A stretch of DNA of 63,624 bases, filler included, from Licmophora abbreviata (Eukaryota): assembly GCA_900291995.1 (NCBI GenBank). It is 10 parts of 10 records of this genome, joined end to end, with 100 filler letters (N's around TTAATTAATTAA, not from the genome) between each part and the next. Parts side by side here need not be neighbours in the genome. Positions count along the whole stretch, not along the records: positions 47,120 to 55,597 come from OLMU01004106.1; 9 more parts are not named here. One strand, 5' to 3'. Of this stretch, positions 14,943 to 61,300 are shown in pieces. The notes under the pieces were generated by a model. That model worked only from the letters and a program-made list of their open reading frames with translations. It did not search any database and had not been told where the DNA came from. The translations under genes and the position numbers were made by a program. How positions within the stretch are numbered: the first letter of the stretch is position 1; each line of letters starts with the position of its first letter.

Positions 14943-15311
14943 ATGGTCCACTTGGACGGTCACGAATTGGCCATTTTGGGTACCATNNNNNNNNNNNNNN
15001 NNNNNNNNNNNNNNNNNNNNNNNNNNNNNNTTAATTAATTAANNNNNNNNNNNNNNNNNNNNNNNNNNNNNNNNNNNNNNNNNNNNACCATCTCGGGTAC
15101 TGCCTCGGTCATGCAAGCCACACTGGGCAAAGGCTGGTTCAAACGATTCATCCATACACAACCTATTCCAGCCATGAGTGTCGTCTTGGGATTGGTGGGA
15201 ATCGGCATGCCTCTGGTCGTTGTTCCGATCCGACGAGCGATCGGGCTTCCCACCAACCAATACGATGCAACGCATCCGAATGTCAAGTTTCCAGCCTATG
15301 TAGATCCCTAG
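14943..15311 (+). CDS. Small single-TM protein resembling mitochondrial complex I NDUFA3/9.5-kDa subunit (spans a false gap)
   Basis: HTQPIPAMSVVLGLVGIGMPLVVVPIRRAIGLPT; contig ends overlap by ACCAT and merge in frame from ATG 14943. Confidence 0.55.
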
Positions 15312-23451: not shown

Positions 23452-24060
23452 GCTGGATTGTAACTTCTTGATCAAGTCTTCTAGTCGCATACGGTCATCC
23501 GAGTACGGATGATGACTGTTACACGAAGAAGAAGAAGAGGACAAGTCATCGCCGTCTGCAATCATGTGTGGTAGGTCACCGCCACAACGGTCAGTCGTGT
23601 NNNNNNNNNNNNNNNNNNNNNNNNNNNNNNNNNNNNNNNNNNNNTTAATTAATTAANNNNNNNNNNNNNNNNNNNNNNNNNNNNNNNNNNNNNNNNNNNN
23701 CGTGTCTGTGTTTCCATCCATTCGCTTCAATTGTCGTGTAATGATCCGAACACCCTCCGAGAGTCTCTCGAGAGCTTCTTTCGCTTCGGTCGCTTGTCGC
23801 CTCGCGTCCCGGAGGTGAAGCAGCAAATCTTGTTGTTGTGGCTTTTCGGGAGTAATGAGCGATGGGATTGGTGTAAAAGAGGACTTGTCACGTTCCATAC
23901 TGACGGTATGTGGTGCTGGATCGACAGCAAAACTGCTACTAGTAGGAGAGGAGTACGACGCAAACGAACCCGTCGAGGAGCAGGATCCGCCGGTCATGGT
24001 CCTGTCTCGATTACTATTTCTTCCAAGAGTAGTAATAGCAGAAGGGCTTTGTCGATGCAT
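22021..24060 (-). CDS. Hypothetical coiled-coil/low-complexity protein with poly-N and poly-Q tracts (spans a false gap)
   Basis: ORFs 23701-24060 and 22021-23565 merge in frame through a CGTGT overlap of the contig ends (..GNTDTTDRCGGDLPHMIAD..). Confidence 0.6.
22995..23031. repeat. (TTG)n microsatellite encoding poly-Q; a second (TTG)n tract at about 23419-23452 encodes poly-N
   Basis: Perfect trinucleotide runs visible in the sequence. Confidence 0.9.
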
Positions 24061-34600: not shown

Positions 34601-35108
34601 AAGATCAAGTCTAAATCATCATCCTTCAAAGCGGATGCTGATGCGGAAGCACTACTAACAATGGGAGGATCTGCATGTTCGTCATGCATCAAGAGCTGCA
34701 ATACATCATCATCATCGTGTACCAAGACAGCAGAAGTATCAAGCGGGGACAAGGACCGACCATCGTGAGGTTCNNNNNNNNNNNNNNNNNNNNNNNNNNN
34801 NNNNNNNNNNNNNNNNNTTAATTAATTAANNNNNNNNNNNNNNNNNNNNNNNNNNNNNNNNNNNNNNNNNNNNGGGACAAGGACCGACCATCGTGAGGTC
34901 CGCCTTCCTTCGTCGTCGAATCCTCCTCCAGAGCAGCAGCAGCAGCCGACATGTGCATCACCAATGGAGAAATTCCAATGGTACGCTGTCCCGCCGTCTG
35001 AGCCTCTTTCTCCTCTTCTTCTCTGTTCGAAGTGTCAACAACCGTCGCAGTGTGAAAGGCATCGAGAGGTCTCGCGCCTCGTCGTTGTCGCTCCTCCTCG
35101 GAACTCAT
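31639..35108 (-). CDS. Membrane-anchored RING-H2-type E3 ubiquitin ligase (spans a false gap)
   Basis: Long disordered N-terminus, TM helices, PCDVPLKPYYW, C-terminal CCIC..TECQHVTHKRCLQEWL..RTCPVCR; three GT-AG introns (first 32871-32781); contig ends at 34774/34873 share about 25 nt and merge in frame. Confidence 0.8.
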
Positions 35109-37414: not shown

Positions 37415-39066
37415 ATGATTCACCGTAGTACGCGAACACAGAAGCGAGAGTCGCCGCTTATCGCTACTAGCAGAGACGTCGAACAAAGCACTTCTGCAGA
37501 CGGGAGTCGTCCTGCAACGCAGTCGGATGCTGGGAGTCATCTGCAGGTCGCGTCGAGCAATCACAGCAGCAGCTCTGTCAGCCGAGAACCATCGGCGGCA
37601 AACACACGTCGACGCCGGCGGAAGCGATCCGAGGTCCGAGCGTCTTTCCCTAAATCATTTCCTCTTGTACTACCTGCTCTTTCTACCGCTTGTGTACTGC
37701 TCCTTTGCATTTTCTTTTGGTCCTCCCGACAACAACGACTCCTCGCCAACAACAACAGCAAGGGATGGTGGGTGCTGACGGCAATGTCGGCTTTGCCAAT
37801 CCTGTCCTGCGCCTCGGTGGTCCTTCGATCCAAACATCATCCTCATCAACGTCTCATTGCAGGCTTCTTTGTGGGCGCCATCGTGTGCGGTCGCTTGCCG
37901 AAATTCATCACTTCCGGCCTCGTCGTCACTGCCATCTTTGTCTTGGGTCTAGCCACGAGACCCATCANNNNNNNNNNNNNNNNNNNNNNNNNNNNNNNNN
38001 NNNNNNNNNNNTTAATTAATTAANNNNNNNNNNNNNNNNNNNNNNNNNNNNNNNNNNNNNNNNNNNNACTGCAGCATCATCATCTTCACCTGCTACTCCT
38101 ACGCACCCTGGACTGTGGGCTGCGATAGCTGCCATTCTTACCACACTATCCCTCCTCGTGGAAAACTTCTTCATCTGGGTGGTCAGCGCCACCTACTATC
38201 CCAGTCACAACGGATCCCCAACCCCACTCCAAGACAATGGGAGACTCGTGCAGCAATACATGTTTCAAACCGCATTAGGTCTATCAGGACGCACGGTACA
38301 AAGCTGGCGTGCCACTCTGAACGTCCAGTGGGCCCTCGTGGCGGGATTCGCAGCTGCCTTGGTCGTTTGCGAACTGCAGCTCGTGCGCAGGCGCAATGTG
38401 GCGGGACTCGCGACACGGGCGCTCTCCACGCTGGCGGCCGTACGCTTCATTCGAACGATCAGTTTCTTGATTACCGTCCTTCCCTCGCAAGTGCAGAATT
38501 GTTATCGACAGCGATTTCCAATGCCGCCACCCACGGAGTGGGGTGAATGGGTCATGGTGGGGTTGGCGCCACGCACTCATGGAGGGTGCAATGATTTGAT
38601 AGTGTCGGGGCATGCGACAGTCACGACTGTGTTGGCGTGTGTCAGTACGTCCATGGTGGGGAATTTGTGGTTCAGCTTTGGGCTCTGGGTGCTATTGGCG
38701 ATTGACTTTTGTGTGGAGGTCTACGAAGGCTTTCACTATTCTGTCGACATGTGGATGGGAGCGCTCTTGACGAGTTTGCTGTGGCGTGTACTGGCGCCAA
38801 TGGAAGAAGCGTGTCATCAGGATGTTTCGACAAAGCGTGGCCTGCACCCTCTCTCCTCCACCACTCCAGGATTGACCCTGCAGTATGCGATTCCGGCGAT
38901 GGGCGCGTACATGGCGATATCGGTGTTTCCAGAGTCGGCGGCCAATTATTGGATAGTCTTGTACGTGCTGGTACCTGGAATTCAAATTCTGCGTGGCGGA
39001 TTCACGCACCTTGTCCAGCATGAACTCTTCTTGACGTTGACCATTGCGCTGGGGACGTACTTGTAG
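37415..39066 (+). CDS. Sphingomyelin/inositol-phosphorylceramide synthase-like (PAP2_C) membrane protein (spans a gap)
   Basis: RTISFLITVLPS, GGCNDLIVSGH and HYSVDM catalytic motifs; multiple TM helices; the two sides join in frame. Confidence 0.8.
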
Positions 39067-43001: not shown

Positions 43002-44351
43002 TTATGACTGTGCTGGATGGGCAAGGCGCGACTTGAGCAACTTCAACCTCGGTCCCCTTTGCGGCTCGTCGACAGTAGTATCCATGTAGCATCCCGTGGA
43101 CACGGTGCTGCTACTCGTCGTACTCGTGCTTGTCATGGAATCGACGCTGCGAAGAGACGATGAACAGGATGATGGCAGTGCCTCTTCCATTAGTTTGCGC
43201 TTGCTTCCTGCCGTCATGGTGGTGTTGTTAGCTTGATGTGTATTGCTACCGGGACTCTCGTCTATTGCAGCCGTCAGTACTCGAACAATAGTGGGGCTGG
43301 AATGATGAAACAAGGATGGTGTTGTCAAAATACCCGAGACAGAGTCGTCGGAAACGACGCGTGCCCGATTTGGACTGGGAACCTCGTTCGACTCGTTGGG
43401 AAGTAGCAGCAACTGCGATTCCGATGAGTCTTGCGGTGGGGGGATAGTAGGCGTACTGAATTCCGTTGTCGTCGACGTCGTCATGGGACGGAGGAGAGCC
43501 GCGGGGTGCGGATTGACGATGTGAAAGCCATGGATGGATGGCATGGTACTAACAATACTTGCAGTACGAGTACCATCATCCTTGTCGTTGTTGTTGACCG
43601 CGCCGATGAGTCCATGGCGCAATTCGGGAGCCCCTTCGCGAAGCGCCTGCGACGTCTTTTCGCGTGCCTTGCGGTCCCCAATGTCGACATAGTCCCCTTG
43701 TGCCGTCTTTTTGAGAAAGCGTCCCTCTTGTTTCCTGACCGTCTGGACAATTTCCTTTGCCACACCGGCCTTGTCTCGTTTCGATGCCTTCAAGTATACT
43801 TCCTGGTGGAAACGCACGAGCTGGCGAAAGTACACGTTACCGGGATGGTGGTTTGTGAGTCCGCCACGGCCACAGAGAACATCGTGCTCGCCAATGTTGT
43901 AGGCTAGGAGATCGCTGGCGGCGGGATCCGATTTTCCATTCTTAGGTTTCGTGGGAGTAGACTTACTGCTGCTATTCGTGTTGGTGGGTAGAGCCGGTAG
44001 AGCGGTGACAGAAGTATCCACAGCTTTGTCAGTTCCACTCACAGTAGTAGTATAGCTAGTAGCAGGATTTCTGGTGCTGTGAAGCGAAGGAGGGTCTTGA
44101 GCACTCGCACATGCGAGAGCTAGGGCGTCGAGGGCCGTCGTGGCAGTAGGAAGAGACCAAGTGGGCTGCTGCTGTTGTCGTCGATGCGGATCGTCGCGAT
44201 GAGGAATCCTTATGAGTGCGCCACGATCAAACATGGATCCTTGTGTCGGGGTCTCTTCGAGAGTAGGATCTTGTGTGGCAACAGCTGACTTCTCTTCCAA
44301 GGAAAGCGTCGCTGGATTCGGTACTAGCAGGCTCGTATCAGCGGTATTCAT
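43002..44351 (-). CDS. DUF6824-domain protein (diatom-expanded putative regulator)
   Basis: HDVLCGRGGLTNHHPGNVYFRQLV..GRFLKK..KAREKTSQALRE core inside a low-complexity S/T-rich sequence. Confidence 0.8.
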   Translation of the reverse strand: MNTADTSLLVPNPATLSLEEKSAVATQDPTLEETPTQGSMFDRGALIRIPHRDDPHRRQQQQPTWSLPTATTALDALALACASAQDPPSLHSTRNPATSYTTTVSGTDKAVDTSVTALPALPTNTNSSSKSTPTKPKNGKSDPAASDLLAYNIGEHDVLCGRGGLTNHHPGNVYFRQLVRFHQEVYLKASKRDKAGVAKEIVQTVRKQEGRFLKKTAQGDYVDIGDRKAREKTSQALREGAPELRHGLIGAVNNNDKDDGTRTASIVSTMPSIHGFHIVNPHPAALLRPMTTSTTTEFSTPTIPPPQDSSESQLLLLPNESNEVPSPNRARVVSDDSVSGILTTPSLFHHSSPTIVRVLTAAIDESPGSNTHQANNTTMTAGSKRKLMEEALPSSCSSSLRSVDSMTSTSTTSSSTVSTGCYMDTTVDEPQRGPRLKLLKSRLAHPAQS

Positions 44352-47019: not shown

Positions 47020-47178
47020 NNNNNNNNNNNNNNNNNNNNNNNNNNNNNNNNNNNNNNNNNNNNTTAATTAATTAANNNNNNNNNNNNNNNNNNNNNNNNN
47101 NNNNNNNNNNNNNNNNNNNATACACAACGCCATCACAATTCATGCACATCCATAATTGATTCTTGTAAGCTCACCACG

Positions 47179-48747
47179 ATGAAACCGAACAAGTTGATTC
47201 TCATTCCATGGTCGCTGTTGCTGCTCCATCTTCCTGACGCGGCCCAATCCTGGTCTTCAGCAGTCACAGCACACGGTCATGTCTCGACGACGACAACGGC
47301 GTGTTCGAACAACGATCGACGAAACGCCATGTCGGTGCTTCACATGTCCTTTCACAATAGGAGCCCCACAGCATCATCACGCCGCAAGAAAAACAAGAAA
47401 AGACGACTCGTGGTGGTCGGCGGGGGTATTGGCGGCCTATCATCTGCCTTTGATGCACGTCGCATGCTCCACGACGACGAAATCATTCTAGTGTCGGATC
47501 GCGAGCAATTCCAATTTACGCCCAGCAATCCGTGGGTTGCAACGCGGGCAAGAACCGAACAAGATATCTCCTTGAGTCTTACCAAGATTCTTTCCAAACA
47601 CCAAGGGATTGACTTTATTCATTCCGCCGTGACGCATCTCGATCCAGAGCAGCAGACGCTGACACTGAAGAATGGCAATTCCATCGAGTATGACTTTTTG
47701 CTGATCGCAACGGGACCACGACTGGCGTTTGAGGATATTCCTGGACTGGGACCGGAGAAGTACTCGACGAGTGTCTGTACGACACCTCATGCCAGCGAGG
47801 CGGCGGACGCCGTCGATCGATTGACATCGAGTCCAGGTCCTGTCGTGGTGGGGGCTGTTCAAGGCGCCTCGTGCTTTGGACCTGCCTATGAGTTTGCCTT
47901 GTTGCTACAGTTTGAGCTGGAGAAGAGGGGTGGAAGGGTGTTGGTGGATAAGTGTCCCATTACATTCGTCACGTCGGAGCCATACATTGGTCACCTCGGA
48001 CTCGGTGGTGCGGGGGAGTCGAAGAAGATACTCGAAAACCTCTTTGCCAAGAAGGGTATTGAGTGGTATACGAACTGCAAGGTCGATGAGCTTACCAGTG
48101 AGAGTGTCTCCATCGAGTACCTCATTGACGACGGAACGGCAATGAAGAAACGAAGCAAGACGATTCCGAGCAAGTTCAACATGCTGATTCCACCCTTCAA
48201 GGGAATGGACGTGTGGGGCTCTGTTCCGGGTCTGACCGATCCCAACGGGATGATTCTCATTGATCACCACCAGCAATCCACAGCATTCCCCAATATATTT
48301 GCAGTCGGAATTTGCGTCCATATGGATGCTTTGGAAGAGACTCCCATTCCCACCGGAGCACCAAAAACTGGTTATATGATTGAGTCCATGGGCACGGCCG
48401 CCATCAAGAACATTCGCAGTATGATTGACTATTTGGAGCTGCACGACGACGAGGACAACGCCAACTTGAAAGCCATCGAGCTTTGCAACAGACCTCTCTT
48501 GAACGGTCTTTGCATAACCGACTTTGGCAACGACGGTGCCATATTTCTGACGCTTCCTCAACTGCCACCGCGACGAACGGACATTACCATTGACGGAAGA
48601 GTGGCGACCTTGGCCAAGATTGCTTTTGAACAATACTTCTTGTACAAGATACGAACGGGTGATACGGATCCGTACTACGAAAAGTACATGCTCCATCTCA
48701 TTGGCGTCGATAGGACAGTGAAGGAGAAGTGCAAGGAGATTGGATGA
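47179..48747 (+). CDS. sqr: Sulfide:quinone oxidoreductase, bacterial type I (SqrA-like), with a bipartite plastid-targeting presequence
   Basis: VVVGGGIGG, FTPSNPWV, YDFLLIATGPRL, SVCTTPHA (C200), GASCFGPAYE (C232), FVTSEPYIGHLGLGG, PTGAPKTGYMIESM, LCITDFG (C445), AKIAFEQYFLYKIRTG..PYYEK; intronless and intact. Confidence 0.92.
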   Translation: MKPNKLILIPWSLLLLHLPDAAQSWSSAVTAHGHVSTTTTACSNNDRRNAMSVLHMSFHNRSPTASSRRKKNKKRRLVVVGGGIGGLSSAFDARRMLHDDEIILVSDREQFQFTPSNPWVATRARTEQDISLSLTKILSKHQGIDFIHSAVTHLDPEQQTLTLKNGNSIEYDFLLIATGPRLAFEDIPGLGPEKYSTSVCTTPHASEAADAVDRLTSSPGPVVVGAVQGASCFGPAYEFALLLQFELEKRGGRVLVDKCPITFVTSEPYIGHLGLGGAGESKKILENLFAKKGIEWYTNCKVDELTSESVSIEYLIDDGTAMKKRSKTIPSKFNMLIPPFKGMDVWGSVPGLTDPNGMILIDHHQQSTAFPNIFAVGICVHMDALEETPIPTGAPKTGYMIESMGTAAIKNIRSMIDYLELHDDEDNANLKAIELCNRPLLNGLCITDFGNDGAIFLTLPQLPPRRTDITIDGRVATLAKIAFEQYFLYKIRTGDTDPYYEKYMLHLIGVDRTVKEKCKEIG

Positions 48748-49163
48748 CAACGAATAGAGCAACATGTAGTTTCTGTTCATCGCCACAATCTACCAAATCA
48801 AGAACCATACATGATGGTAGCAATCGTGGTATTTCATATACACCATCAAGACAACAAGAGGTGACGTCTTCTTTTCAAAGGAGAGAGAGAGAGAGAGAGT
48901 TGATCTTGAACACGCTTGCTCTCCTGCAGTCGCCATCACAATCCACTCCGGCTCTAACCCTCTGTGCGAGTAATATTGTAACATTGTCACGACGAGCTTA
49001 TTGATTGTAACCCATAAGTCTATTAAGAAGCGTCCAGTGATGTGGTGTTTCCCACATGTGTGTGTGTGTGTGTTGGTCGTGTGTAACGAACGCCCACAAG
49101 ACATGCGGTCCTGAAATTAAAAAGACCGTCATGCCACACTTCCTACACACACTCTATTGCGTG

Positions 49164-50176
49164 CTATGTCAGGACACTACCCTCCTTGGGTGGCGTGGGT
49201 GGTACAAACGTCCCAGCCGCACTGCCTGACCGCCTGACATCGAATCGTTCCCCAATGTATCCACTCGACATGAAGTTCGGATTACTCCTACTATTCCTCC
49301 TCATATCACCGGGTCTTGTCATGAGATCGTTCGCATTCTCTTCCATAATGTCATGGACAGAGAGCCATGTGAGTGTGGCGAATCCAGCATACAAGATGGT
49401 GAGAAAGGCACACATGATACTAAAGGCCATGCTCCTCCGATCGACGGAAGAGTTGTTGTTGTCGTCGTCATTATAGGAATAATAGTCCCCGTCGGCGTCC
49501 TCGGGTTCTCCGTCGCGACGGTCGTAGTCTCGAATCTAGTAGTAAGAGTAGTGAGTAGTAGTAGTAGTAGTAGTAGAAGAAGAAGAGAGTATCCAGACAG
49601 AGGAGAACGTGGTCAGATACATAGAGGGACCGGTTGTATGCGCCCACTATGCTGTGTTCTATCAGCAGCAGCATCACGACGGATAGTACTCACTTGAAAC
49701 TCTCCAAAGAGTACAGCGCAGACCAGTGTGAGATTGGCAAACATGATGAGTGCCCCAATGAAGGATCCCAGTCCCAATTGCGTTGTTTGATGGACCGATG
49801 GCGAGCAGCACGTATAGTATTGTCCCGTGGGCGATTGAAATCCCAAAATGACCGTCCCAAAGACCCCAAGCAACAAGGCCACGACGGCCGTCCAGAGTGC
49901 CGTAAAGGCCATGGCTCTGGATGTGACGGCGACTTGCGGTTCACTGTTGTTATTATTGTTGTTTTGTTGCTGCTGCGTGTTGCTTGCATCGTCATCGTAG
50001 TAGTAATTATTAGTATTGTTGTTTGAATTCGTGTCTGCCGAAAAGGCAAAGGCTAGAGCAATCAAGAAGGCCAGGGCTGTCAAGCTCGTGACGATATTCC
50101 ATTGCAATGCCAACAAGCCTCTTTGAGAGGTGACAATCGAGCCACACAGTGAGGATGATGAAGAAGAAGACGGCAT
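49164..50176 (-). CDS. Hypothetical four-TM membrane protein
   Basis: Exon 50176-49694 (three TM helices), GT-AG intron 49693-49536 containing a (TAC)n microsatellite, exon 49535-49164 in frame (fourth TM helix). Confidence 0.65.
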
Positions 50177-50553
50177 GAGCAGAGCGGCGGTTGGGTGAGA
50201 CGCAGGGAAATGCTCTTGGACTGCATGTATGATATGATACTCGAGTATCGTAGTAGGCCAATGCCATCGCCGCGACACCGCCGGCTCCCCACACTGCCGC
50301 GCGCCTTGCGGGATTCTGTTTGTTGCACGACACGCTCGCAGCTGTCCTGTCGTACTTCCAGTATGAGTCAAACTGTAGGGGGCATTGGTCACAACGGATA
50401 AGGATGCTTTTTGAGTTTATGACGCTTTCTGGAGTCGGAGAAACGGAGATACTTCTCATCCATAGATGAGTTGTGCAGTGTATCGACATTCCGGATGCCA
50501 CTGTGTATCAGTCTTGCAACGAGAACAAAGAAGATACGCAATGACTGACGAGA

Positions 50554-52251
50554 ATGATCATGGGCTTGTGCTGTCGTCGTCCTTTTGCAGCTTCTTCGAG
50601 GCTTTCGCTGTTGCTGCTGCTGCTGTTGCATCTGCTGTGTCCCCTTGTATCCGCAAGCAGTGATACTGTACGACTGTCAACGAGCCGTCAATATCAGCAG
50701 CAGCAGCAGCAGCAAAAGAAGTATGCGTCTGTAGCGACTACAACGCAGTTGCTGCCAATGCACCGAACAAAGAAGAAGAAGAAGAAGAAGAGGACGATGG
50801 AAAGACCAGTTTTAGCAGCAGCAGCAACGGCACCCTCAGCAGCAGTGCGGACTACTACTGTCACTGCTTCGACTGCTACTACTATTCATACTCGTGGAGG
50901 TGCGGTCCAGACAAAGAAAACAGACGACCCCAATGACGACGACGACGACGACGACGACAAGACCAGCAAAAAGGCCAGTATTCCCAGCAGCATCTTTAAC
51001 TTAGTCAACAACGTCGCCGGGGCAGGCATTCTCACACTCTCCGCTGGCATGGCCGGAGGCACAGGATACGTCCCCGCCATTGCCGTCAGCAGTCTCTTGG
51101 CAGTCCTCTCCGCTCATACTTTTGAAATGATCGGTGAGGCCTGTGAATTGCTCCATCAAGACGACTTCAAGGGACTTTGGAGTCTCACGATTGGACCCAA
51201 GACTACCTACATTGTCGATGGGATGGTTGCTGTTCTCTGTTTGGCCGTCTGTGTTATCTACTCGGGCATTCTGGGGGATGTCTTTACGCCCCTCTTGGAC
51301 TCTACCGGAGTCGCAGCCAAGTACAATGCACGAACGTCCAATATCATTGTACTCACTCTGACACTCTTGTGGCCCATGAGCTTGATCAAGAATCTATCCA
51401 GACTGGCATTTACGTCCATACTGGGATTCGCTTCCATCATGTACACGGTCCTTTTTATTCTTATTCGAGCACTCGATGGCACCTACAGTCTCGGTACTAC
51501 CACCAGTTCTGCTGCCGTTCATGGCGTCGGACGTGTTGCGGGCAAGTTTGTCCATGATGCTACCATTGTCGCCCCTGCATTTTCCAAGACGTCCATGTGG
51601 AATATGGACTTTACATCGCTCGTATTGGCTTCCAACTTGGGACTCGCCTACATTGCTCACTACAATGCTCCCAGTTTCAAAAAGGCTCTCAAAGACAGTA
51701 CGACCAAACGATTTTCCACCATGGTTCGTACTTCCTTTGTCATTCTCGTTGTTCTCTACATAATGACCATGATTGCAGGATACACGACCTTTGGTGACGT
51801 CTGTCAAGGCAACCTGTTGCTCAATTACCATCCCAACGACGTCTTGTCGACACTGGGACGACTCACGACGGGCTTTAGTATTCTCTTTGGATTTCCATTG
51901 GTAGCATTCGGAGCCCGCGAAGGCATTGTCAATGCTGCAAGTAGTTTGGGGTGGAAACTGGAACGACATCATTTTTGGCTCGTCACGTGCATTTTGATAC
52001 TCGTCACGAGCATATCCACGACGGTACAGGATGTGTCGCTAGTGGTGGGTTTGACGGGAGCTGCGCTAGGGTCCTTTATTGTCTACATTTGTCCGGCTTT
52101 GATTTATACCAAGGCAGTGAAACTAAGCAAGGGTGGAGAAAGTTGTGAATACAAGAGAGCGAGACTGAATTTGGCGTTGATTCCATTTGGTGCAGCGATT
52201 GGTGGGTTGGGAGTGTACATGACACTCAAGGAAGCCCTTAGTGAATCGTAG
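50554..52251 (+). CDS. Amino acid transporter (Aa_trans/AAAP, SLC38-like) with an N-terminal signal peptide
   Basis: SIFNLVNNVAGAGILTL, AYIAHYNAP, GYTTFG..GNLLLNY, GLTGAALGS..YICPALIY; about 11 TM helices. Confidence 0.88.
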   Translation: MIMGLCCRRPFAASSRLSLLLLLLLHLLCPLVSASSDTVRLSTSRQYQQQQQQQKKYASVATTTQLLPMHRTKKKKKKKRTMERPVLAAAATAPSAAVRTTTVTASTATTIHTRGGAVQTKKTDDPNDDDDDDDDKTSKKASIPSSIFNLVNNVAGAGILTLSAGMAGGTGYVPAIAVSSLLAVLSAHTFEMIGEACELLHQDDFKGLWSLTIGPKTTYIVDGMVAVLCLAVCVIYSGILGDVFTPLLDSTGVAAKYNARTSNIIVLTLTLLWPMSLIKNLSRLAFTSILGFASIMYTVLFILIRALDGTYSLGTTTSSAAVHGVGRVAGKFVHDATIVAPAFSKTSMWNMDFTSLVLASNLGLAYIAHYNAPSFKKALKDSTTKRFSTMVRTSFVILVVLYIMTMIAGYTTFGDVCQGNLLLNYHPNDVLSTLGRLTTGFSILFGFPLVAFGAREGIVNAASSLGWKLERHHFWLVTCILILVTSISTTVQDVSLVVGLTGAALGSFIVYICPALIYTKAVKLSKGGESCEYKRARLNLALIPFGAAIGGLGVYMTLKEALSES

Positions 52252-52364
52252 AAAAATGACGAACGCTGTGATTTGGGCCGCCACAACGACAGCAAGAGCG
52301 ATAGAGACACTGCTATCATTAAAGTAGTACCGATTTTTCGATAGAGCACTCTGTAGCGACGCAA

Positions 52365-54110
52365 TCAGGACTCGCCGCTGTCTTGTAGTGTGCCATCTCC
52401 CCACCACGGAGTTCGAGCCTTGGCGCGTACACCTCCAAATAAAATTGCATGAGCCTGTAAGCCAATAGGAGCCGTCGGAATCCGACACTTTTGTAACGCC
52501 TGATCCATGCCCTCCTCATCCTCTTGCAAGCTCTCAAACGTATATCCTGCCATTGGCTCATACAACGTATCTCGAATAATGGGACACCCCAACGAGGCCA
52601 GTTGTGCGCGAACTTGATGCTTGCGACCCGTCACGAGGCGAATGGTGGTCTGGTAGTGTTGAACACCTGGGTCGGGATTGTACGTGTGCTTGTCTGGTTC
52701 GGCTTGTATATGAATAGGCTCACACTTGACAACCTCCAATGCACAGCGGGTCCAGAATTGCTTTACAAAACAAATAGAATAGTAGATAGCACAAGTGTGA
52801 GATTGGTCGCAACACTGGCTGTGTACCACAGGATACAACCGTCTTGCACATACCCTCGCTTTCCTCCGACTCTCCGGAGGCAAATGACTGACCAGCTGAC
52901 ACGGAGGTCCGCCAGTTCGCCCTCGCGCAGTCGTCTGAGGCGCCCACATCCAATGCAAGTGCATACCCACTGGCACAGGGTTCCGAGTGACGGCCAGGTA
53001 TACTTTCTTGAGCTGTCGTTTCCGTTGCAAGTCATGAAAGACTCTTTGACCATTTCGATCCTTACTCAAGACGACACATCCCCCCACACAGGCATCGGCA
53101 CGATGACACAACAACGGACGCGGTACGGGTTGACCGGTAATTGTCGTAAAGGGACCCAACAAGTCGTGCACACACCCCGGAAGGCACTCGTAATAGTTGG
53201 ACGCATCCGGCTGCGTCGGTAGCATCGGTGGCTTGTCCACCACTAGGAACGTCGTGTCTTCATACAACAGACTGTCTTGACCGTTGCCTATTTCGTAACA
53301 CGATGGAAAGCGCCGTGGCGAAGGATAGACGCGAATATCAGTTCCTGCCTCGACCGTACTGGCACTCAAGATTCTTCGATAGCGCTGTGACATCATTCTG
53401 TCCACGTAGTCTTCCAAGTCATCTTCGTCTTCGCCATCACCACTGTTGGATTTTTTGCTCCCAAAGTCAGAATACAAGACAGAAGTGGAACTCATAGCAC
53501 TTCCACCACTGTTTCCACTCATACTACTGCTATCCCACTCGTCGTATTGACTCAGTACATCTTCTTCAGTCAGTGTTTCCATACGCGCCCATACGGCACC
53601 AATCTCTACCAGTTCATTGGCTTCTTGGAGAGTCGTATTGGCAATTCGTGAGACTTCGAGATTCAACGGTCCAGTCCGTGCTGCCACTCCCTTGAGGGCG
53701 CGATGACGATGACGACGCGGAGGTGATAATGATGATGATGATTCATTCGCAGGAGAAGCAGCTTCGAGAGTACGAGTCGTTACGTCTTCCTTGTCTTGTT
53801 CCAATGTCATCCTCATCATGCTACTACTTCTTCTTCTTCTTTGGTGAAGACGAGACCATGATGACTCCACCGTCGAGGAGCAAGAGGTGATGCTGCATGC
53901 CGGATCGATGATGGGTGATTTTGATGGAGGACGATCACCGCGTTGACTACGTTGTATCACGGGATGAGAAGGAGTGACGAACGACCAGGCAGCTGAAAGC
54001 GTACCGAACAACACCAACAGAGTCACACTCATTGTATGAGAGTAGTACTCTGGCGGTCGCCGTCGCTTTCGAGTCTCAGTTCCGTGAAAGAAGAACGCCA
54101 TACTCGTCAT
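52365..54110 (-). CDS. RluA/RluD-family pseudouridine synthase, probably plastid-targeted
   Basis: VVDKPPMLPTQ, CHRAD (HRLD variant), KKVYLAV, LVTGRKHQVRAQLASLGCPIIRDTLY, GLQA; AWS-F presequence (start may be 54032); in-frame intron 52853-52761. Confidence 0.85.
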   Translation of the reverse strand: MTSMAFFFHGTETRKRRRPPEYYSHTMSVTLLVLFGTLSAAWSFVTPSHPVIQRSQRGDRPPSKSPIIDPACSITSCSSTVESSWSRLHQRRRRSSSMMRMTLEQDKEDVTTRTLEAASPANESSSSLSPPRRHRHRALKGVAARTGPLNLEVSRIANTTLQEANELVEIGAVWARMETLTEEDVLSQYDEWDSSSMSGNSGGSAMSSTSVLYSDFGSKKSNSGDGEDEDDLEDYVDRMMSQRYRRILSASTVEAGTDIRVYPSPRRFPSCYEIGNGQDSLLYEDTTFLVVDKPPMLPTQPDASNYYECLPGCVHDLLGPFTTITGQPVPRPLLCHRADACVGGCVVLSKDRNGQRVFHDLQRKRQLKKVYLAVTRNPVPVGMHLHWMWAPQTTARGRTGGPPCQLVSHLPPESRRKARVCARRLYPVVHSQCCDQSHTCAIYYSICFVKQFWTRCALEVVKCEPIHIQAEPDKHTYNPDPGVQHYQTTIRLVTGRKHQVRAQLASLGCPIIRDTLYEPMAGYTFESLQEDEEGMDQALQKCRIPTAPIGLQAHAILFGGVRAKARTPWWGDGTLQDSGES

Positions 54111-54423
54111 GCTGTCATGGTCGGAAGATGATGGATTGATGGGATTATTTCAGTATTTCAGTTTGTCTTGTTTATTTTCTTTGGAAAATACGTGGCTGGC
54201 ATTCGTCGTCATGGGTCAGTCTTGCTGTCGTACGTTTGAATCTACCCACGACTTGATGCCTCGTGACTGACTCTCAACACGAAAGCACTATTGACTCAAA
54301 ACCTTTTCCTTTCCCGCCCAACAAAAACATAACACAAAAAAACATCGTGAGTCGGTTGACACTTCAACCATGATATTGACGATGACGGAGAAGAAGGTAT
54401 CTTCCGTGACGAGAAACAGAAGG

Positions 54424-56218
54424 ATGAGGCAAGCAACGCTAGCAATGGTGCTTTTGTGTTTCGGGGCGCCCACGATGACCGATGCGTTCTCGTCGTTGCC
54501 ATCCGTATTCACATCTAAATTAAACCGACTGCCATCACCATCGGTAGTCGCGCCGCGGACCACTGATGATGCTGCGACACTCTTGCCGTTGTCCTCCAGG
54601 ACAACAAACAACAATAACAGCGACGACGATGACGAACTGTCCAAGTTGATTGGCAAGAGAGAGGAAATCAAGCGAAAAAAGAAAATTATTCCCGAAGAAG
54701 ACGTGGAACGCATGACCCTCGATGCACCACCCTCCTCTGCCGACCAGATTGACTTTGATTCCATGCCAGCGTTTAAAACAGAAAGACCCGTGAGACAATC
54801 CAAAAAGGGAAAGGAGACTAACAAAAACAGCAACAAAAAGGAAAAGGACTCTCAGAACAATCTAGACTTTCTTGCGGAATTCGACGACGAAAATGACCTG
54901 CACATTCCCAATCGAATCGGTGTCAGTACCATGAAATGGGGCGACCCGACTCATGGCTTTGTCAACGGTGGAAACTTACCAAAAAGCAGCGACGCCAAGG
55001 AAAATTCGTACCTGGTGACGTTCAAATGGCCTACAATACACTCTTGGAAAATGGTATTTCCTTTCTGGAAACCAGCGAGCTCTATGGGGCATCGTCTCGA
55101 TCGCAGACACTCTCGTCGGAGCACATTCTGTCTAGGTGCATGGAGGAGAATGATGCGTATAGTGCCATTGTGGCGGGCACCTTTTGTAATTCCTGGAAGA
55201 ATCTACTCAAGAATCGAGGTGTTAGACTGGGTGCCAACGGGGTATTCAACGCCATCGAAAAGAGTTGTGAGCGAATGGACACTTCGGGGGTAGAACTGTA
55301 TCAGATTGAAAGCACTCTCTTATATCCAGGGGGGAGAGGATCGCTTGCGGATGGCTTGGCCATGGCCATCGACAAGGGATACTGTAACTACATTGGAGTT
55401 AAGAATGTTGGGAAGATAGGAATGAGAGGATTTTCGCGGAAACTGGAAAGTCGTGGCTTGTCGCTCACGTCCAATCAGGTGAGTCTGGTACTGTGCTCTG
55501 GTGGTACCGGTAGTAGCATAGGGTGGCCGCCCCCGAAACATCTTCTCACGTTGACCCGACTCACGACGATGCCACCCTCAACACCCCTCTTTTGTAGNNN
55601 NNNNNNNNNNNNNNNNNNNNNNNNNNNNNNNNNNNNNNNNNTTAATTAATTAANNNNNNNNNNNNNNNNNNNNNNNNNNNNNNNNNNNNNNNNNNNNACG
55701 ATGCCACCCTCAACACCCCTCTTTTGTAGTTCGAATTCAGTCTCACGAATCGAAAGGCGTTGAAGTCAGGTTTGATTGATGCCTGCAAGAATCTCGGGGT
55801 GATTCCTCTTGCTCGAGCTCCATTGGACGGTGGCTTGGCCTCGGGCAAGTATACCGCGACGAATCCTAGTGGTGGCGAAGCAGGTGGGGCCGCCAAGTAC
55901 ACCTTTGCAAAGCTGGAAAAACTGCAGCCTCTCCACAGTGTTCAGGAGACTGTTGCAGAACGAGCGAGTACGAGAGTACGACGAGAGCTGCGGGACGTAC
56001 AAGAACGAATGCGACGCTTTGGTCCAGCGCCCAAGGTCAACACCGATATCACCACAACACAAGTGGCCATCAACTATATCATTGCAAAGGGAGCAGTGCC
56101 CCTGTGCGATGTTACGGACTCGAAGCAGGCTCGGGAGGTGATAGGATGTTTGGGCTGGAGCTTGTCGGAGGATGAGGTCGATATGCTGGACTCCGCAGCG
56201 TCGCTTTGTGGGTTGTAA
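54424..56218 (+). CDS. Aldo/keto reductase family protein, plastid-targeted; frameshift at 54972-54974, intron spans a false gap
   Basis: TDA-F presequence; GISFLETSELYG, SCERM..VELYQI, IGVKN, SNQ/FEFSL, PLDGGLASGKY, QVAINYIIAKGAVP, CLGWSLS. Confidence 0.8.
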
Positions 56219-58153: not shown

Positions 58154-58351
58154 NNNNNNNNNNNNNNNNNNNNNNNNNNNNNNNNNNNNNNNNNNNNTTA
58201 ATTAATTAANNNNNNNNNNNNNNNNNNNNNNNNNNNNNNNNNNNNNNNNNNNNCGACAGCGACCTTCCACTCTGCAACGACTCAACCTTTAGCGAGAATA
58301 CAATGCCGTTTGGGTCTTTCCAAGTACAGATCAGCAGCAATTGACTCGATC

Positions 58352-61300
58352 ATGGTCGGAGAATCTTCAACAGAATCGAAATCGGAAGAGTCGCTGAACG
58401 TGTCGGCGTCTCGTTCCGCGCTTCCGACGCCAGTTTCAGCGCCGCTGTTTTACGGCCGGGATTCAGAATCGCAAATGCTCCGTGCTGCCTACGAGCGGCA
58501 CTGCGGTGCCTCCACTTCCAATAATATTATGAGCGAATTGGTGATTGTCAACGGAGCATCCGGGACTGGCAAAACATCGTTGGTGTATCATGTGTTACAG
58601 CCTCTGGTACAGCAGCAAAGTGGGGGCATGTTCTTGTCGGGAAAGTTTGATCAGCCGAGTCGCCACAAGACGGGGCAAGTGCCGTATGGTCCCTTTGTCA
58701 CAGCTTTTTCCAACTGGGTAGAGAAGATTAGATCTCAGGATGTTCTCAGTCATTTGCAGGATCAGCTTGTGCAGGAACTAGATATGGATGAAAGGAGTCT
58801 TCTGGCGGATACCGTTCCGGCCCTTGCGACTGTCTTGCAGGTACCATCAGATCTCGCATCGCGTCGCCGAAGTAGTTTGCTTGAACAGTTCCCAGAATTC
58901 GACGTTTCGCGGCATCTTTTCTTGAGTGAGAGTCAACTGGATTATTCCAACGAGCTGAGCCAGGATGAGGAAGATGGTGGTGGCACACAAGACCGGTCCC
59001 TTGATCAGACGGGACTCACTGGTGGGGCTCAGAAACAACGCTTTCTGGCAGCATTTGTGAGCTTCCTCCGTATCACTACATCGCGTGAGCGACCATTGGT
59101 CCTGTTCCTAGATGATCTGCAGTGGGCGGATCAAAGTAGTCTGGATCTGCTCTCTGCTTTGGCACTGCGGGAGAAACACAATGGGCTCATGCTGTTGGGA
59201 GCCGTTCGTGGTAACGAAGTTGGACTCGATGACGTATTGGCAGTCGTCTTACGAGCTATGGAGGATGCCAATGTGATTATTACAAATATTGAGCTCCATA
59301 ACTTTGATCGGGAAAATGTCAAGGGGATGGTTGCGCAACAATTCCCAACGGACGACCTGGACAGGGTTTCGAATGATGTGTACAATCAGACCGACGGAAA
59401 CGCATTCTATATTGCGCAGCTCATGACCCTCTATCAGCAGAAGGGAGTTCTAACTAGAAACGTCATAAGCAAAGAGTGGCATTGGGACGAGAATCGGATA
59501 GAAAACCGAAACAAGCGCAACGTATCCGACGTGATGAAAGATTCCTTGCATGAGCTTCCTGAGGCTGTGCAGCTGGTTTTGAAAGTTGCTGCTTGTATCG
59601 GGTCGAAGTTTCAGGAGCGACATGTCAAGATTGTGCTACCCGATATTGACGTACGCGCTGCACTCGAGATAGCTTCTGAAAAGGGCATTGTCCAATATGC
59701 GTCTGGCCGGGGAATGTTCAATCATGACAGACTGCAGGAAGCGGCCTACAAGTTGATACCTGAGAACCGCCGTTCCATTCTTCATGCGTCTATTGGACGG
59801 AATCTGCTAAACGCATTTTCTGAAGAAGAGCTCGACGAGAACATATTTCTTGTTGTTAATCAGTTCGGCGCTGGCATTGAGGAGATAATCGGTTCGAGGC
59901 AGAGAGACCGACTTTCAATTCTATGTCTTCGTGCCGGTGAGAAAGCGGTGGTGTCTTCGGCATTTGAGCCTGCAGCTTCCTATCTAGACATCGGTATTTC
60001 CTGTCTCGATTCTTCGTACTGGAAGTATCAGTACAATTTAAGTCTGGCGCTATTCAGCTCTGCGGCTGAAGTCGAGTACTGCAATGGGAGATTCGACAAG
60101 ATGGATCGTTACATTAAAGAAGTGTTTGCGAACGCCAAGACGTTCAATGACAAGATCAGATCGTACACGTCGCATGTGTTCGCTCTTGGAGCACAGCAAA
60201 AATTTCAAGAAGCGATCGACACCGGTCTTTATGTGTTGAGCGAGCTAGGTATGCGATTCCCGCACGGCCACGAAAAATCCACGCCATAATCGCAGTACTC
60301 AAGACGAAGCGACTCCTTCGTGGAAAGACAGCAGACGATATTGTAAATCTCCCCGTTATGACGAATCCAGAGACGCTTGCAGCCTTGCACATGCTCAACT
60401 TGATATCGCTTTATGTTTTCTTCACAAGACAAGCCTATCTTCCGCTCATGTCTACTCGTTTTGTGCAAACGACATTGTCGAGCGGCCTCAGCGGCTTCGG
60501 TAGCTCTGGCTTCGGCTACCATGCGATGCTTACTTGCGGAGTCTTGGGTGATATTGATGGCGGCTACTTCTACGCTCAGATCGCCCTTCGGCTCCTCGAA
60601 AAATTTCATGCCAAGGCGTATGTTGCTCGTGTGTATGTCCCCGTGTATGGCATGGTTGTGAGTATCACTGCAATGATATCGTGTATGAGTCCAGTATTCT
60701 CGTATGATTCGGACAATAACTCAATCTTGTATCGCTGTCATTGCCTACGCAGACGAGCTGGAAGGAGCCAGTACGAAACAGTTTTGGACCCTTGAAACTG
60801 GCCTACCGAAATGGCCTCGACTCGGGTGATATGGAGTTTGCCATGCTTGCCGCGACATTATATGTATTTTCGTCTCTCTTCGCCGGGGCGCCACTGATTC
60901 AGCTTCAGAGTGAGGTCCGCACTTTTCTTGCAGAGGGCAAGTCGCACAAGCAACAGGGCATACTATCGCTAGTTCTACCGGCGGCACAGATGATAGATAA
61001 TCTCATGGGCAACGCAAAGAGTAGCCCGTCTCTCCTTACGGGTGACTTTATGGACGAGGAGACGTATCTGAGACACCCAGAGCATAAGAAAGGCTCTGCG
61101 CACTTTGTGTCCATAAACCTCCGCCGACTCATGTGTAAGTACAGGGGTGAATATGCGAAGACCGCGCTCAGCCTCGTCAGAATACATGCCAACAAGCGTT
61201 CCTCACTCTTGTATGCATACGGGACACAGGTGCATACGTCATGAACGACCTTGAAACAAGTTCGATTTCGGCAGCGAACAGCCGTGGGATTGAGAAGGAA

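What the first reader, a model, noticed from the sequence alone, without database searches (positions are those of the whole stretch)
47179..48747. Plastid-targeted bacterial type I sulfide:quinone oxidoreductase in a diatom: possible sulfide-fed plastid electron transport
Seen: an intact 522-aa ORF with the full SqrA signature (C200 in SVCTTPH, C232 in GASCFGPAYE, C445 in LCITDFG, EPYIGHLGLGG, PKTGYMIESM and a C-terminal membrane-binding helix pattern AKIAFEQYFLYK..PYYEK). It is preceded by about 75 aa shaped like a diatom bipartite presequence: a signal peptide ending AQS-W, then an S/T/R-rich transit peptide with LHM. Established: eukaryotic SQRs (SQOR/HMT2) are mitochondrial type II enzymes; type I SqrA is the enzyme of Aquifex, Acidithiobacillus, Rhodobacter and of cyanobacteria doing sulfide-driven anoxygenic photosynthesis by reducing plastoquinone; W is an accepted +1 residue of the ASAFAP motif. 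Inference: this alga may oxidise sulfide inside the plastid, either to protect sulfide-sensitive PSII or to feed electrons through plastoquinone to b6f/PSI without water splitting. That would be anoxygenic-type photosynthesis or sulfide-fuelled chlororespiration in a eukaryote, plausible for a benthic or mat diatom. I cannot tell from the sequence whether this has been reported before.
Basis: partly seen in the sequence, partly recalled or inferred. Interest (0 to 1): 0.93.

Follow-up and report, generated by a model that had tools for sequence, protein, structure and literature searches.

The report
Plastid-addressed bacterial sulfide:quinone reductase in diatoms
A diatom nuclear gene encodes a bacterial-type sulfide-oxidising flavoenzyme with an address tag for the chloroplast; the same gene is present but unstudied in many diatoms, so sulfide handling inside a eukaryotic chloroplast can now be tested.

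Summary
The 522-aa ORF is real and is a type I sulfide:quinone oxidoreductase. It matches A. ferrooxidans SQR at E 2e-116 and Aquifex SQR at 8.6e-103, with model TM 0.92 to both. Human type II SQOR shares only 18% identity. All six residues mutated in the solved enzyme are conserved.

It belongs to a single eukaryotic, diatom-centred clade (100/97). This clade includes Thalassiosira pseudonana, Cyclotella, Nitzschia and Amphora. A clade joining it to cyanobacterial SQRs is rejected (p-AU 0.0075), so the gene is a non-cyanobacterial bacterial acquisition.

Using the published ASAFind matrix, 51 of 57 orthologs carry a strong plastid presequence. The ASAFind supplement already lists the T. pseudonana and P. 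tricornutum orthologs as 'Plastid, high confidence'.

Caveats:
- The query's own motif (AQS|W) is weak, with transit score 1.60 against a cut-off of 2.
- The window is ten contigs joined by linkers, and the gene starts 59 nt from a contig edge.
- The gene occurs in planktonic diatoms, so it is not specific to benthic ones.

The most likely role is sulfide removal in the plastid, with electrons passed to plastoquinone. Sulfide-driven photosynthesis is untested. Ten literature searches found no paper describing this enzyme.

The parts
47020..47119 (.). Artificial contig linker (44 N + TTAATTAATTAA + 44 N). The SQR contig begins at 47120.
   Evidence: Nine such linkers split the window into ten contigs.
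47120..55597 (.). The 8.5-kb contig that carries the SQR gene. It also holds an Aa_trans amino-acid transporter (50554-52251 +) and a pseudouridine synthase (52365-54110 -).
   Evidence: The transporter's nearest Atlas clusters are Bacillariophyta (score 0.97). GC of the SQR CDS is 0.516 against 0.497 for the rest of the contig.
47179..48747 (+). Complete coding sequence of the SQR precursor: 522 aa plus stop, single exon.
47179..47250 (+). Signal-peptide-like segment, residues 1-24 (MKPNKLILIPWSLLLLHLPDAAQS).
   Evidence: Hydrophobic window of mean KD 2.47. AlphaFold helix at residues 8-16. The cleavage site is read by eye; SignalP was not run.
47251..47403 (+). Transit-peptide-like segment, residues 25-75, starting with W25. 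It is Ser/Thr/Arg-rich and predicted disordered.
   Evidence: Composition and net charge +10, computed on residues 25-76. pLDDT is below 50 for residues 21-62. ASAFind transit score is 1.60 at W25.
47404..48726 (+). Mature type I SQR core, residues 76-516.
   Evidence: phmmer against 3sz0 E 2e-116 and 3hyv E 8.6e-103. Foldseek TMt 0.92. pLDDT is mostly above 90.
47419..47436 (+). FAD-binding GxGxxG motif (GGGIGG, residues 81-86).
   Evidence: Pfam Pyr_redox_2 E 1.7e-21.
47776..47778 (+). Cys200, equivalent to A. ferrooxidans Cys128.
   Evidence: Alignment. Conserved in 27 of 27 eukaryote rows.
47872..47874 (+). Cys232, equivalent to A. ferrooxidans Cys160.
   Evidence: Alignment. Conserved in 26 of 27 eukaryote rows; the N. 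inconspicua row has Ser.
48511..48513 (+). Cys445, equivalent to A. ferrooxidans Cys356.
   Evidence: Alignment. Conserved in 27 of 27 eukaryote rows.
48433..48486 (+). Eukaryote-clade insert of variable length, acidic in the query (residues about 419-436). It is absent from all bacterial rows.
   Evidence: It is longer than the bacterial rows in 24 of 27 eukaryote rows.
48598..48699 (+). C-terminal helices (residues 474-493 and 499-507). They correspond to the C-terminal part of type I SQRs, which is the membrane-binding part according to my recollection of the structure papers.
   Evidence: DSSP on the model. The alignment to 3sz0 runs through to chain residue 430.

Best explanation
This is a nuclear diatom gene for a type I (SqrA-like) sulfide:quinone oxidoreductase. 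An ancestor of the diatom clade acquired it from a non-cyanobacterial bacterium, and it was fitted with a bipartite presequence (signal peptide plus transit peptide).

Inferred steps:
1. The precursor enters the ER.
2. It crosses the four plastid membranes and is processed.
3. It binds FAD.
4. It attaches by its C-terminal helices to a plastid membrane, probably the stromal face of the thylakoids.

There it would oxidise H2S at the Cys200/Cys232/Cys445 site to sulfane sulfur. The two electrons would pass through FAD to plastoquinone.

The most likely physiological role is to keep sulfide low inside the plastid. That sulfide could be environmental or could come from plastid sulfite reduction. 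The electrons would be disposed of through cytochrome b6f/PSI in the light, or through a plastid terminal oxidase in the dark.

Shown here: the enzyme type, conservation of the catalytic residues, the eukaryotic clade, the non-cyanobacterial placement, and the conserved presequence.
Inferred: import, membrane side, quinone identity and role.
For: Enzyme type:
- phmmer against the PDB gives A. ferrooxidans SQR 2e-116 and Aquifex SQR 8.6e-103. Acidianus type V gives 8e-21, human type II 1e-10, and FCSD 1e-8 to 4e-5.
- The AlphaFold model has pLDDT 88.6. It matches 3sz0 and 3hyv at TMt 0.92 with 40-42% identity, against human SQOR at TMt about 0.8 with 18% identity.
- Equivalents of S126, C128, H132, C160, H198 and C356 are all present (6 of 6; alignment). 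These are the residues named as mutated variants in the PDB titles.
- 26 of 27 eukaryote rows keep all eleven sites checked except position 446, which is a hydrophobic I or L.

Eukaryotic gene:
- The same contig carries an Aa_trans gene whose nearest clusters are diatom.
- GC is similar to that of its neighbours.
- Orthologs lie on a 3.68-Mb Nitzschia inconspicua contig and a 2.44-Mb T. pseudonana contig.

One clade, not cyanobacterial:
- In the careful tree of 46 rows, eukaryotes get 100/97 and cyanobacteria 100/100. The branch that excludes cyanobacteria gets 99/93.
- AU rejects a eukaryote+cyanobacteria clade, p 0.0075.
- The best 80 of 595 genome hits include no cyanobacterium.

Targeting:
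- 49 of 56 orthologs with at least 30 residues of extension have a hydrophobic core followed by [AGSC]|[FWY]. Shuffled sequences give 12.5%.
- With the published ASAFind matrix, which I validated by reproducing 6.4079/4.8185 for Thaps3a_3977, 54 of 57 have F/W/Y/L at +1 and 51 of 57 also have a transit score above 2.
- The ASAFind supplement lists Thaps3a_3977 (SignalP D 0.766) and Phatr2a_49591 (D 0.658) as 'Plastid, high confidence'.
- Two bilin reductases elsewhere in the same bin have presequences of the same shape.

Expression: orthologs occur in MMETSP transcriptomes of Nitzschia sp. RCC80 and Amphora coffeiformis, and as a T. pseudonana-like transcript.
Against: - The query's own motif is weak. 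The ASAFind transit score at W25 is 1.60 (cut-off 2), and within +/-2 residues the matrix's best site has Q at +1. That would give 'not plastid, SignalP positive' if SignalP cleaves at 24/25.
- The true start cannot be confirmed, because the contig ends 59 nt upstream and the frame is open to the edge.
- There is no localisation, activity or expression data for this organism.
- Quinone specificity cannot be read from the sequence.
- The N. inconspicua ortholog has Ser at the second cysteine, and the P. tricornutum catalogue model is truncated after SVCSTPH. The function may therefore be dispensable or altered in some diatoms.
- The bacterial donor is unresolved. The sister relation to an Aquificae-like group has only 92/83 support and involves long branches.
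Confidence: 0.6

Rival explanations
1. The enzyme's main role would be energetic: sulfide serves as electron donor to plastoquinone, b6f and PSI, and supports DCMU-insensitive CO2 fixation. That would be anoxygenic photosynthesis in a eukaryote.
For: - Type I is among the SQR types said to enable growth on sulfide as sole donor (passage in PMC13384644).
- It is also the type linked to anoxygenic photosynthesis in cyanobacteria (passages in PMC8651085 and PMC12658273).
- The family has a plastid presequence.
Against: - The gene occurs in planktonic oxic-water diatoms such as T. pseudonana and Cyclotella.
- It is not derived from the cyanobacterial enzyme.
- SQRs also serve detoxification (passages).
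- No physiological data exist, and nine text searches found no report.
Confidence: 0.15
2. The protein enters the secretory pathway but does not reach the stroma. It would stay in the ER, the chloroplast-ER lumen or the periplastidial compartment, or be secreted. This could apply to this species alone or to the W-type subclade.
For: - The query fails the strict ASAFind criteria: transit score 1.60, with the best nearby site having Q at +1.
- Several close relatives with W at +1 also score below 2: P0003 1.36, P0005 1.90, P0022 1.43, P0059 1.87.
Against: - W is one of the four residues ASAFind accepts at +1 (passage).
- W recurs at the matching site in relatives P0002 to P0005, and P0002 and P0004 pass with 2.19 and 2.38.
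- 51 of 57 family members score as plastid.
- The region after W25 is hydroxylated and has net charge +10, like a transit peptide.
- A quinone reductase needs a quinone-bearing membrane.
Confidence: 0.15
3. It is mitochondrial, like other eukaryotic SQRs, and feeds ubiquinone.
For: Eukaryotic SQR activity is classically mitochondrial (passage in PMC9736554).
Against: - The N-terminus has a 13-residue hydrophobic core, not an amphipathic Arg-rich helix.
- The orthologs were SignalP-positive in the published tables.
- The protein is type I, with only 18% identity to human SQOR.
Confidence: 0.05
4. It is a bacterial contaminant or a binning artefact in a diatom MAG.
For: - The window is a concatenation of ten contigs.
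- The gene lies at a contig edge.
Against: - The 75-residue eukaryotic presequence is absent from all bacterial relatives.
- The protein falls in a eukaryote-only clade (100/97).
- A diatom-type transporter sits on the same contig.
- Orthologs lie on megabase-scale diatom scaffolds.
Confidence: 0.01

Closest known systems
Acidithiobacillus ferrooxidans sulfide:quinone oxidoreductase (PDB 3SZ0, 3T31 and others), type I
   Same: - Full-length alignment at E 2e-116 and TMt 0.92.
- Equivalents of S126, C128, H132, C160, H198 and C356, the FAD motif and the C-terminal helices are all present.
   Different: - 42% identity.
- The diatom protein has a 75-residue presequence and an 18-residue acidic insert before the third cysteine.
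- Ile replaces Phe after that cysteine.
- The bacterial enzyme reduces ubiquinone in a bacterial membrane (decylubiquinone complex named).
Aquifex aeolicus SQR (PDB 3HYV), type I
   Same: - E 8.6e-103, TMt 0.92, 40% identity.
- Aquificaceae sequences share Ile after the third cysteine.
- An Aquificae-like group is the weakly supported sister of the diatom clade (92/83).
   Different: - It has no presequence and no insert.
- The sister relation is not robust because the branches are long.
Cyanobacterial type I SQR (Aerosakkonema, Phormidium, Leptolyngbya and others). This is the enzyme class used for sulfide-driven anoxygenic photosynthesis.
   Same: Same type, same catalytic residues, and the acceptor in vivo is plastoquinone (passages).
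   Different: - Only 36-39% identity.
- It forms a separate clade (100/100).
- A common clade with the diatom proteins is rejected (p-AU 0.0075).
- It has Phe after the third cysteine.
Mitochondrial type II SQR (human SQOR, PDB 6OI5)
   Same: Same flavoprotein fold and same overall reaction.
   Different: - 18% identity, E 1e-10, with the match confined to residues 77-385.
- Different organelle and different targeting signal.
Thalassiosira pseudonana 'sulfide:quinone oxidoreductase, partial' (XP_002289088.1 / Thaps3a_3977)
   Same: - It is an ortholog within the same clade (its cluster representative P0030 is 57% identical to the query).
- The ASAFind supplement lists it as 'Plastid, high confidence'.
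   Different: - The GenBank model lacks the presequence and part of the insert.
- It has F at +1 with transit score 4.82, against W and 1.60 in the query.
- I found no paper that discusses it.

Membership tests
Type I sulfide:quinone oxidoreductase (SqrA) | FAD-binding Rossmann fold with GxGxxG | tested here: met
   GGGIGG at residues 81-86. Pyr_redox_2 E 1.7e-21.
Type I sulfide:quinone oxidoreductase (SqrA) | Three conserved cysteines (A. ferrooxidans C128, C160, C356) | tested here: met
   C200, C232 and C445 align to them. They are conserved in 27, 26 and 27 of 27 eukaryote rows.
Type I sulfide:quinone oxidoreductase (SqrA) | Accessory active-site residues probed by mutagenesis (S126, H132, H198) | tested here: met
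   S198, H204 and H272 align to them. The residue list is taken from the PDB titles.
Type I sulfide:quinone oxidoreductase (SqrA) | Type I C-terminal region with two helices, aligned over the full length | tested here: met
   The alignment runs to chain residue 430 of 437. Helices at 474-493 and 499-507. TMt 0.92. That these helices bind the membrane is recalled, not tested.
Type I sulfide:quinone oxidoreductase (SqrA) | Closer to solved type I enzymes than to types II, V or FCSD | tested here: met
   E 2e-116 and 8.6e-103, against 8e-21 (Acidianus), 1e-10 (human) and 1e-8 or weaker (FCSD). Named references for types III, IV and VI were not available. NCBIfam SQR_III_seleno scores 78.6 bits against a cut-off of 525.
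Type I sulfide:quinone oxidoreductase (SqrA) | Sulfide-dependent quinone reduction | not testable with these tools
   Needs an enzyme assay.
Diatom bipartite plastid-targeting presequence (ASAFAP type) | ER-type signal peptide | tested here: inconclusive
   The hydrophobic core has mean KD 2.47. SignalP could not be run on the query. Two orthologs are SignalP-positive in published tables.
Diatom bipartite plastid-targeting presequence (ASAFAP type) | F, W, Y or L at +1 of the cleavage site (ASAFind rule, passage) | tested here: inconclusive
   W25 follows AQS. However, the ASAFind matrix scores position 23 (Q at +1) higher within +/-2 residues. In orthologs the rule is met in 54 of 57.
Diatom bipartite plastid-targeting presequence (ASAFAP type) | ASAFind transit score above 2 (high-confidence class) | tested here: not met
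   The score is 1.60 at W25. It is met in 51 of 57 orthologs, at 4.82 for T. pseudonana and at 4.77 for P. tricornutum.
Diatom bipartite plastid-targeting presequence (ASAFAP type) | Transit peptide rich in hydroxylated residues, with few acidic residues and net positive charge (passage) | tested here: met
   In the 52 residues there are 9 Ser, 6 Thr and 7 Arg, with net charge +10.
Diatom bipartite plastid-targeting presequence (ASAFAP type) | Experimentally shown plastid import | not testable with these tools
   Needs GFP fusions or organelle proteomics.
Eukaryotic mitochondrial type II SQR (SQOR/HMT2) | Sequence membership in the type II clade | tested here: not met
   Human SQOR gives E 1e-10 over residues 77-385 only, with 18% identity.
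Cyanobacterial type I SQR clade (endosymbiotic origin) | Forms a clade with the cyanobacterial sequences | tested here: not met
The branch excluding cyanobacteria gets 99/93. AU p 0.0075.

The most novel reading that the evidence does not exclude
Diatom plastids hold a working sulfide:plastoquinone reductase. In sulfidic, low-oxygen light conditions, sulfide rather than water would then supply electrons to b6f and PSI. This would give a eukaryote a facultative anoxygenic-type photosynthetic electron flow, on an enzyme acquired sideways from bacteria rather than inherited with the plastid.
Probability: 0.15. Interest if true: 0.9.

Novelty: new variant of a known kind. Interest (0 to 1): 0.62.

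Why it matters
Eukaryotic sulfide oxidation is treated as a mitochondrial, type II SQR process (passage). Sulfide-to-plastoquinone electron flow is treated as a speciality of cyanobacteria (passages).

A conserved plastid-addressed type I SQR across diatoms would add a new input to the plastoquinone pool of a major group of primary producers. It could help explain how diatoms tolerate sulfidic sediments, mats and oxygen-minimum waters.

It is directly testable in T. pseudonana, a model diatom that carries the gene. The reference annotation hides the key feature, because the GenBank model is cut back to the bacterial-like core. That may be why the enzyme has gone unremarked.

Tried and rejected
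- Own-genome search: no genome is held for this window. I could not look for a type II SQR, persulfide dioxygenase or PTOX in the same organism.
- Expression: no RNA holder is listed for the stretch.
- Earlier findings of the scan: nothing near this place. The one sequence look-alike is an unrelated bacterial sqr locus.
- Pfam and NCBIfam give only generic flavoprotein hits or sub-threshold SQR_III hits. There is no type I model in those libraries.
- The 82-row careful tree did not finish in three runs. I used its quick version and a finished 46-row careful tree. Rows were chosen by me, and the 36 rows dropped from the 82 were picked for speed.
- In the first tree I labelled P0117 'bacterial'. 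It fell inside the eukaryote clade and has a presequence, so I relabelled it.
- The metagenome scan found one eukaryotic ortholog (L081, 57%) and no near-identical contig. The upstream start could therefore not be checked.
- The hydrophobic moment of the C-terminal helices was not informative.
- An LxM[ST]-like motif near the end of the transit peptide occurs in 16 of 56 sequences, against 7.9% in shuffles. This is too weak to build on.
- Literature: nine text searches ran, plus one search for the ASAFind paper. None found a paper on a diatom or plastid type I SQR. The candidates I read as passages were negative.
- A recalled paper on horizontal gene transfer in diatoms (DOI tried) is not held. 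The SQR classification papers I recall (Marcia 2010, Sousa 2018) were not seen. They may mention eukaryotic type I sequences.
Full report
**1. Observation**

The ORF at 47179..48747 (+) is present and translates to 522 residues.

Nine 100-nt linkers (44 N, TTAATTAATTAA, 44 N) join ten contigs. The SQR gene lies on the contig 47120..55597. Its ATG is 59 nt from the contig edge, and the frame is open upstream to that edge with no in-frame stop. The start codon therefore rests on the signal-peptide-like shape that begins at Met1 and on comparison with orthologs. A scan of metagenome contigs found no near-identical copy that could settle it.

**2. What the protein is**

Against all PDB sequences, the best matches are the type I enzymes of A. 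ferrooxidans (E 2e-116, query 76-516 against chain 6-430) and Aquifex aeolicus (8.6e-103). They are followed at a great distance by:
- Acidianus type V SQR (8e-21);
- human mitochondrial type II SQOR (1e-10, N-terminal two thirds only);
- flavocytochrome c sulfide dehydrogenases.

An AlphaFold model built on 46 aligned sequences has mean pLDDT 88.6. Residues 75-515 are mostly above 90, and residues 21-62 are below 50. Foldseek ranks the same two enzymes first (TMt 0.92, 40-42% identity). Human SQOR follows at TMt about 0.8 and 18% identity.

The six residues named as mutated variants in the A. ferrooxidans PDB titles are S126, C128, H132, C160, H198 and C356. They align to S198, C200, H204, C232, H272 and C445. 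Pfam and NCBIfam have no type I model and give only generic or sub-threshold hits. I conclude it is a type I SQR by every sequence and fold criterion I could test. Activity was not testable.

**3. Whose gene it is**

The same 8.5-kb contig carries an Aa_trans transporter whose nearest Atlas clusters are Bacillariophyta (score 0.97). GC and GC3 of the SQR gene are close to those of its neighbours.

A search of 5.8 billion proteins returned about 70 eukaryote-like relatives at 48-70% identity. After these come bacterial proteins of 422-435 aa without the extension, at 45-49% identity (one further eukaryote-clade row, P0117 at 51%, sits among them). Named sources among the eukaryote-like relatives are:
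- a Bacillariaceae MAG (69%);
- Cyclotella cf. meneghiniana and C. atomus;
- Nitzschia sp. RCC80 and N. inconspicua (on a 3.68-Mb contig);
- Amphora coffeiformis.

The 90% cluster of P0030 contains the T. pseudonana CCMP1335 protein annotated 'sulfide:quinone oxidoreductase, partial' (XP_002289088.1, on a 2.44-Mb contig). It also contains a full-length EukProt model. Several orthologs come from MMETSP transcriptomes, so the family is transcribed in other diatoms. For this organism no RNA evidence could be obtained.

**4. Origin**

The best 80 of 595 hits in 185,579 prokaryote genomes are Pseudomonadota, plus two Nitrospiraceae, one 'Deltaproteobacteria' MAG and one unnamed assembly. None is cyanobacterial. 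At 50% clustering, an Aquificaceae cluster is 44% identical and a cyanobacterial cluster (Aerosakkonema/Planktothrix) is 39% identical. I then collected cyanobacterial type I diversity.

A careful IQ-TREE (LG+C20+F+G4 PMSF, 46 rows chosen by me) gave the following support:
- eukaryote clade, 100/97;
- cyanobacterial clade, 100/100;
- the branch uniting eukaryotes, Aquificae-like and proteobacterial rows to the exclusion of cyanobacteria, 99/93;
- eukaryotes plus the Aquificae-like group, only 92/83.

The quick 82-row tree agrees, with 97 for the branch excluding cyanobacteria. Its careful version did not finish. An AU test rejects a eukaryote+cyanobacteria clade (delta lnL 14.27, p 0.0075).

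So the gene was not inherited with the plastid. It is a horizontal acquisition from a bacterium that I cannot name.

The eukaryote clade also shares an insert of 5-35 residues before the third cysteine, acidic in the query. It is longer than the bacterial rows in 24 of 27 eukaryote rows and absent from all 19 bacterial rows.

**5. Targeting**

Bacterial relatives start 2-4 residues before the Rossmann strand. The diatom proteins carry 30-126 extra residues.

Of 75 eukaryote-clade proteins examined, 56 start with Met and have at least 30 residues of extension. Of these, 49 have a hydrophobic 10-residue window followed within 8-22 residues by [AGSC] then F, W or Y (37 F, 11 W, 1 Y). Shuffled presequences give 12.5% (1397 of 11200). 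By eye, six of the seven misses have near-canonical sites (HG|F, HP|W, SG|L, EG|L, AT|F, HA|L).

I then took the published ASAFind scoring matrix from the paper's supplement. I checked my implementation by reproducing the published 6.4079/4.8185 for Thaps3a_3977. I scored 57 presequences, using a hydrophobic window in place of SignalP. In 54 the best site has F/W/Y/L at +1, and 51 of those also have a transit score above 2.

The supplementary tables of that paper (PMC4329603; I read passages and supplement rows) provide independent support:
- Thaps3a_3977: SignalP positive (D 0.766), cleavage at 22, F at +1, transit score 4.82, 'Plastid, high confidence'.
- Phatr2a_49591 (the P. tricornutum ortholog): D 0.658, cleavage at 23, F at +1, transit score 4.77, 'Plastid, high confidence'.

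ASAFind's rule that only F, W, Y or L at +1 qualifies, and its +/-2 sliding window, were read in the paper.

Two ferredoxin-dependent bilin reductases on another contig of the same bin have presequences of the same shape: VCS|F scoring 5.52/4.85 and VDA|Y scoring 4.45/1.76.

**6. The weak point**

The query's own motif is poor. At AQS|W the cleavage score is 2.67 and the transit score 1.60. Within +/-2 positions the matrix prefers DAA|Q (3.85). Four residues downstream, SSA|V scores 4.37. Strict ASAFind would therefore return at best 'low confidence', and possibly 'not plastid, SignalP positive'.

Against this, W recurs at the equivalent site in the nearest relatives (P0002 AKA|W 2.19, P0004 VGA|W 2.38, P0003, P0005). 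The following 52 residues look like a transit peptide: 15 Ser/Thr, net charge +10, predicted disordered. I put plastid import of this particular protein at about 0.7, and of the family at about 0.9.

**7. Mechanism and role**

By homology, the enzyme oxidises sulfide on the three-cysteine/FAD site and reduces a membrane quinone. In a plastid the available quinone is plastoquinone. I saw no second hydrophobic (lumen-targeting) domain after the transit peptide. The basic stretch before the Rossmann strand is not a conserved twin-arginine motif in orthologs. The stromal face of the thylakoid or the inner envelope is therefore the likeliest site. This is inference.

The gene is present in the planktonic T. 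pseudonana and in Cyclotella as well as in benthic Amphora and Nitzschia. This argues for a general protective or homeostatic role rather than a speciality of sulfidic mats. That role would be to remove sulfide that inhibits PSII (abstract of PMC8002359) or that arises from plastid sulfite reduction. Electrons entering the plastoquinone pool would still pass to b6f/PSI in the light. Whether that flow is physiologically meaningful is the open and interesting question.

**8. Prior knowledge**

Nine full-text searches found no paper on a diatom or plastid type I SQR. The closest candidates were read as passages and do not mention one. The library lacks most subscription papers. The SQR classification papers I recall were not seen, and one recalled paper on gene transfer in diatoms is not held.

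The gene itself is not new to databases. T. pseudonana's copy is annotated as SQR, but its GenBank model is trimmed to the bacterial-like core and loses the presequence and part of the insert. Its plastid prediction sits unremarked among 996 rows of a supplement.

**9. Verdict**

Enzyme type and family-wide plastid addressing hold. The benthic inference and any cyanobacterial descent do not. Sulfide-fed electron transport remains a testable hypothesis.

Noticed in passing
window 11301-11400, 14987-15086, 16116-16215, 23601-23700, 34774-34873, 37968-38067, 47020-47119, 55598-55697, 58154-58253: The window is ten contigs joined by identical 100-nt linkers (44 N + TTAATTAATTAA + 44 N). This is typical of a concatenated metagenome-assembled genome. 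Gene neighbourhood across a linker means nothing.
   Followed up: yes
window 57-1253 (+) and 1488-2645 (-): Two divergently oriented ferredoxin-dependent bilin reductase genes (Pfam Fe_bilin_red, E 3e-40 and 5e-55). Both have diatom-type plastid presequences (VCS|F and VDA|Y). One has a Gly/Pro/Gln-rich C-terminal tail.
   Followed up: partly
ASAFind supplement row Phatr2a_49591: The Phaeodactylum tricornutum ortholog in the optimised gene catalogue is only about 205 aa. It diverges after SVCSTPH and stops before the second cysteine motif. It is either a pseudogene or a faulty gene model, yet it keeps a 'Plastid, high confidence' presequence.
   Followed up: no
protein P0031 (Nitzschia inconspicua), alignment A1/A2 column of query C232: This ortholog has Ser in place of the second catalytic cysteine (GASSFGP). 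The other sites checked are kept. It may be an altered or inactive enzyme.
   Followed up: no
proteins P0416, P0417 and P0030: The GenBank model of the T. pseudonana gene is trimmed to the bacterial-like core (424 aa). It lacks the 51-residue presequence and splices out part of the clade-specific insert. Full-length models (489 aa) exist in EukProt and in the ASAFind catalogue.
   Followed up: yes
protein P0062 (EukProt label Alexandrium tamarense): Over the 64 N-terminal residues printed, this sequence is identical to the T. pseudonana EukProt model P0417. It is probably diatom cross-contamination of a dinoflagellate transcriptome rather than a dinoflagellate gene.
   Followed up: partly
window 47323-47334 (residues 49-52, LHMS) and the matching place in orthologs: An L-x-[ML]-[STAM] motif lies 3-23 residues before the Rossmann strand in 16 of 56 presequences, against 7.9% in shuffles. 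It may be the stromal processing site. The enrichment is modest.
   Followed up: partly
window 48433-48486 and orthologs: A clade-specific insert of 5-35 residues, variable in length and acidic in the query, sits before the third cysteine. It is longer than the bacterial rows in 24 of 27 eukaryote rows and absent from all bacterial rows. Its function is unknown.
   Followed up: partly
window 43002-44351 (-) and 58352-60289 (+): A DUF6824 protein (E 7e-32) and an AAA_16/STAND-type NTPase lie on other contigs of the bin. I did not examine them further.
   Followed up: no
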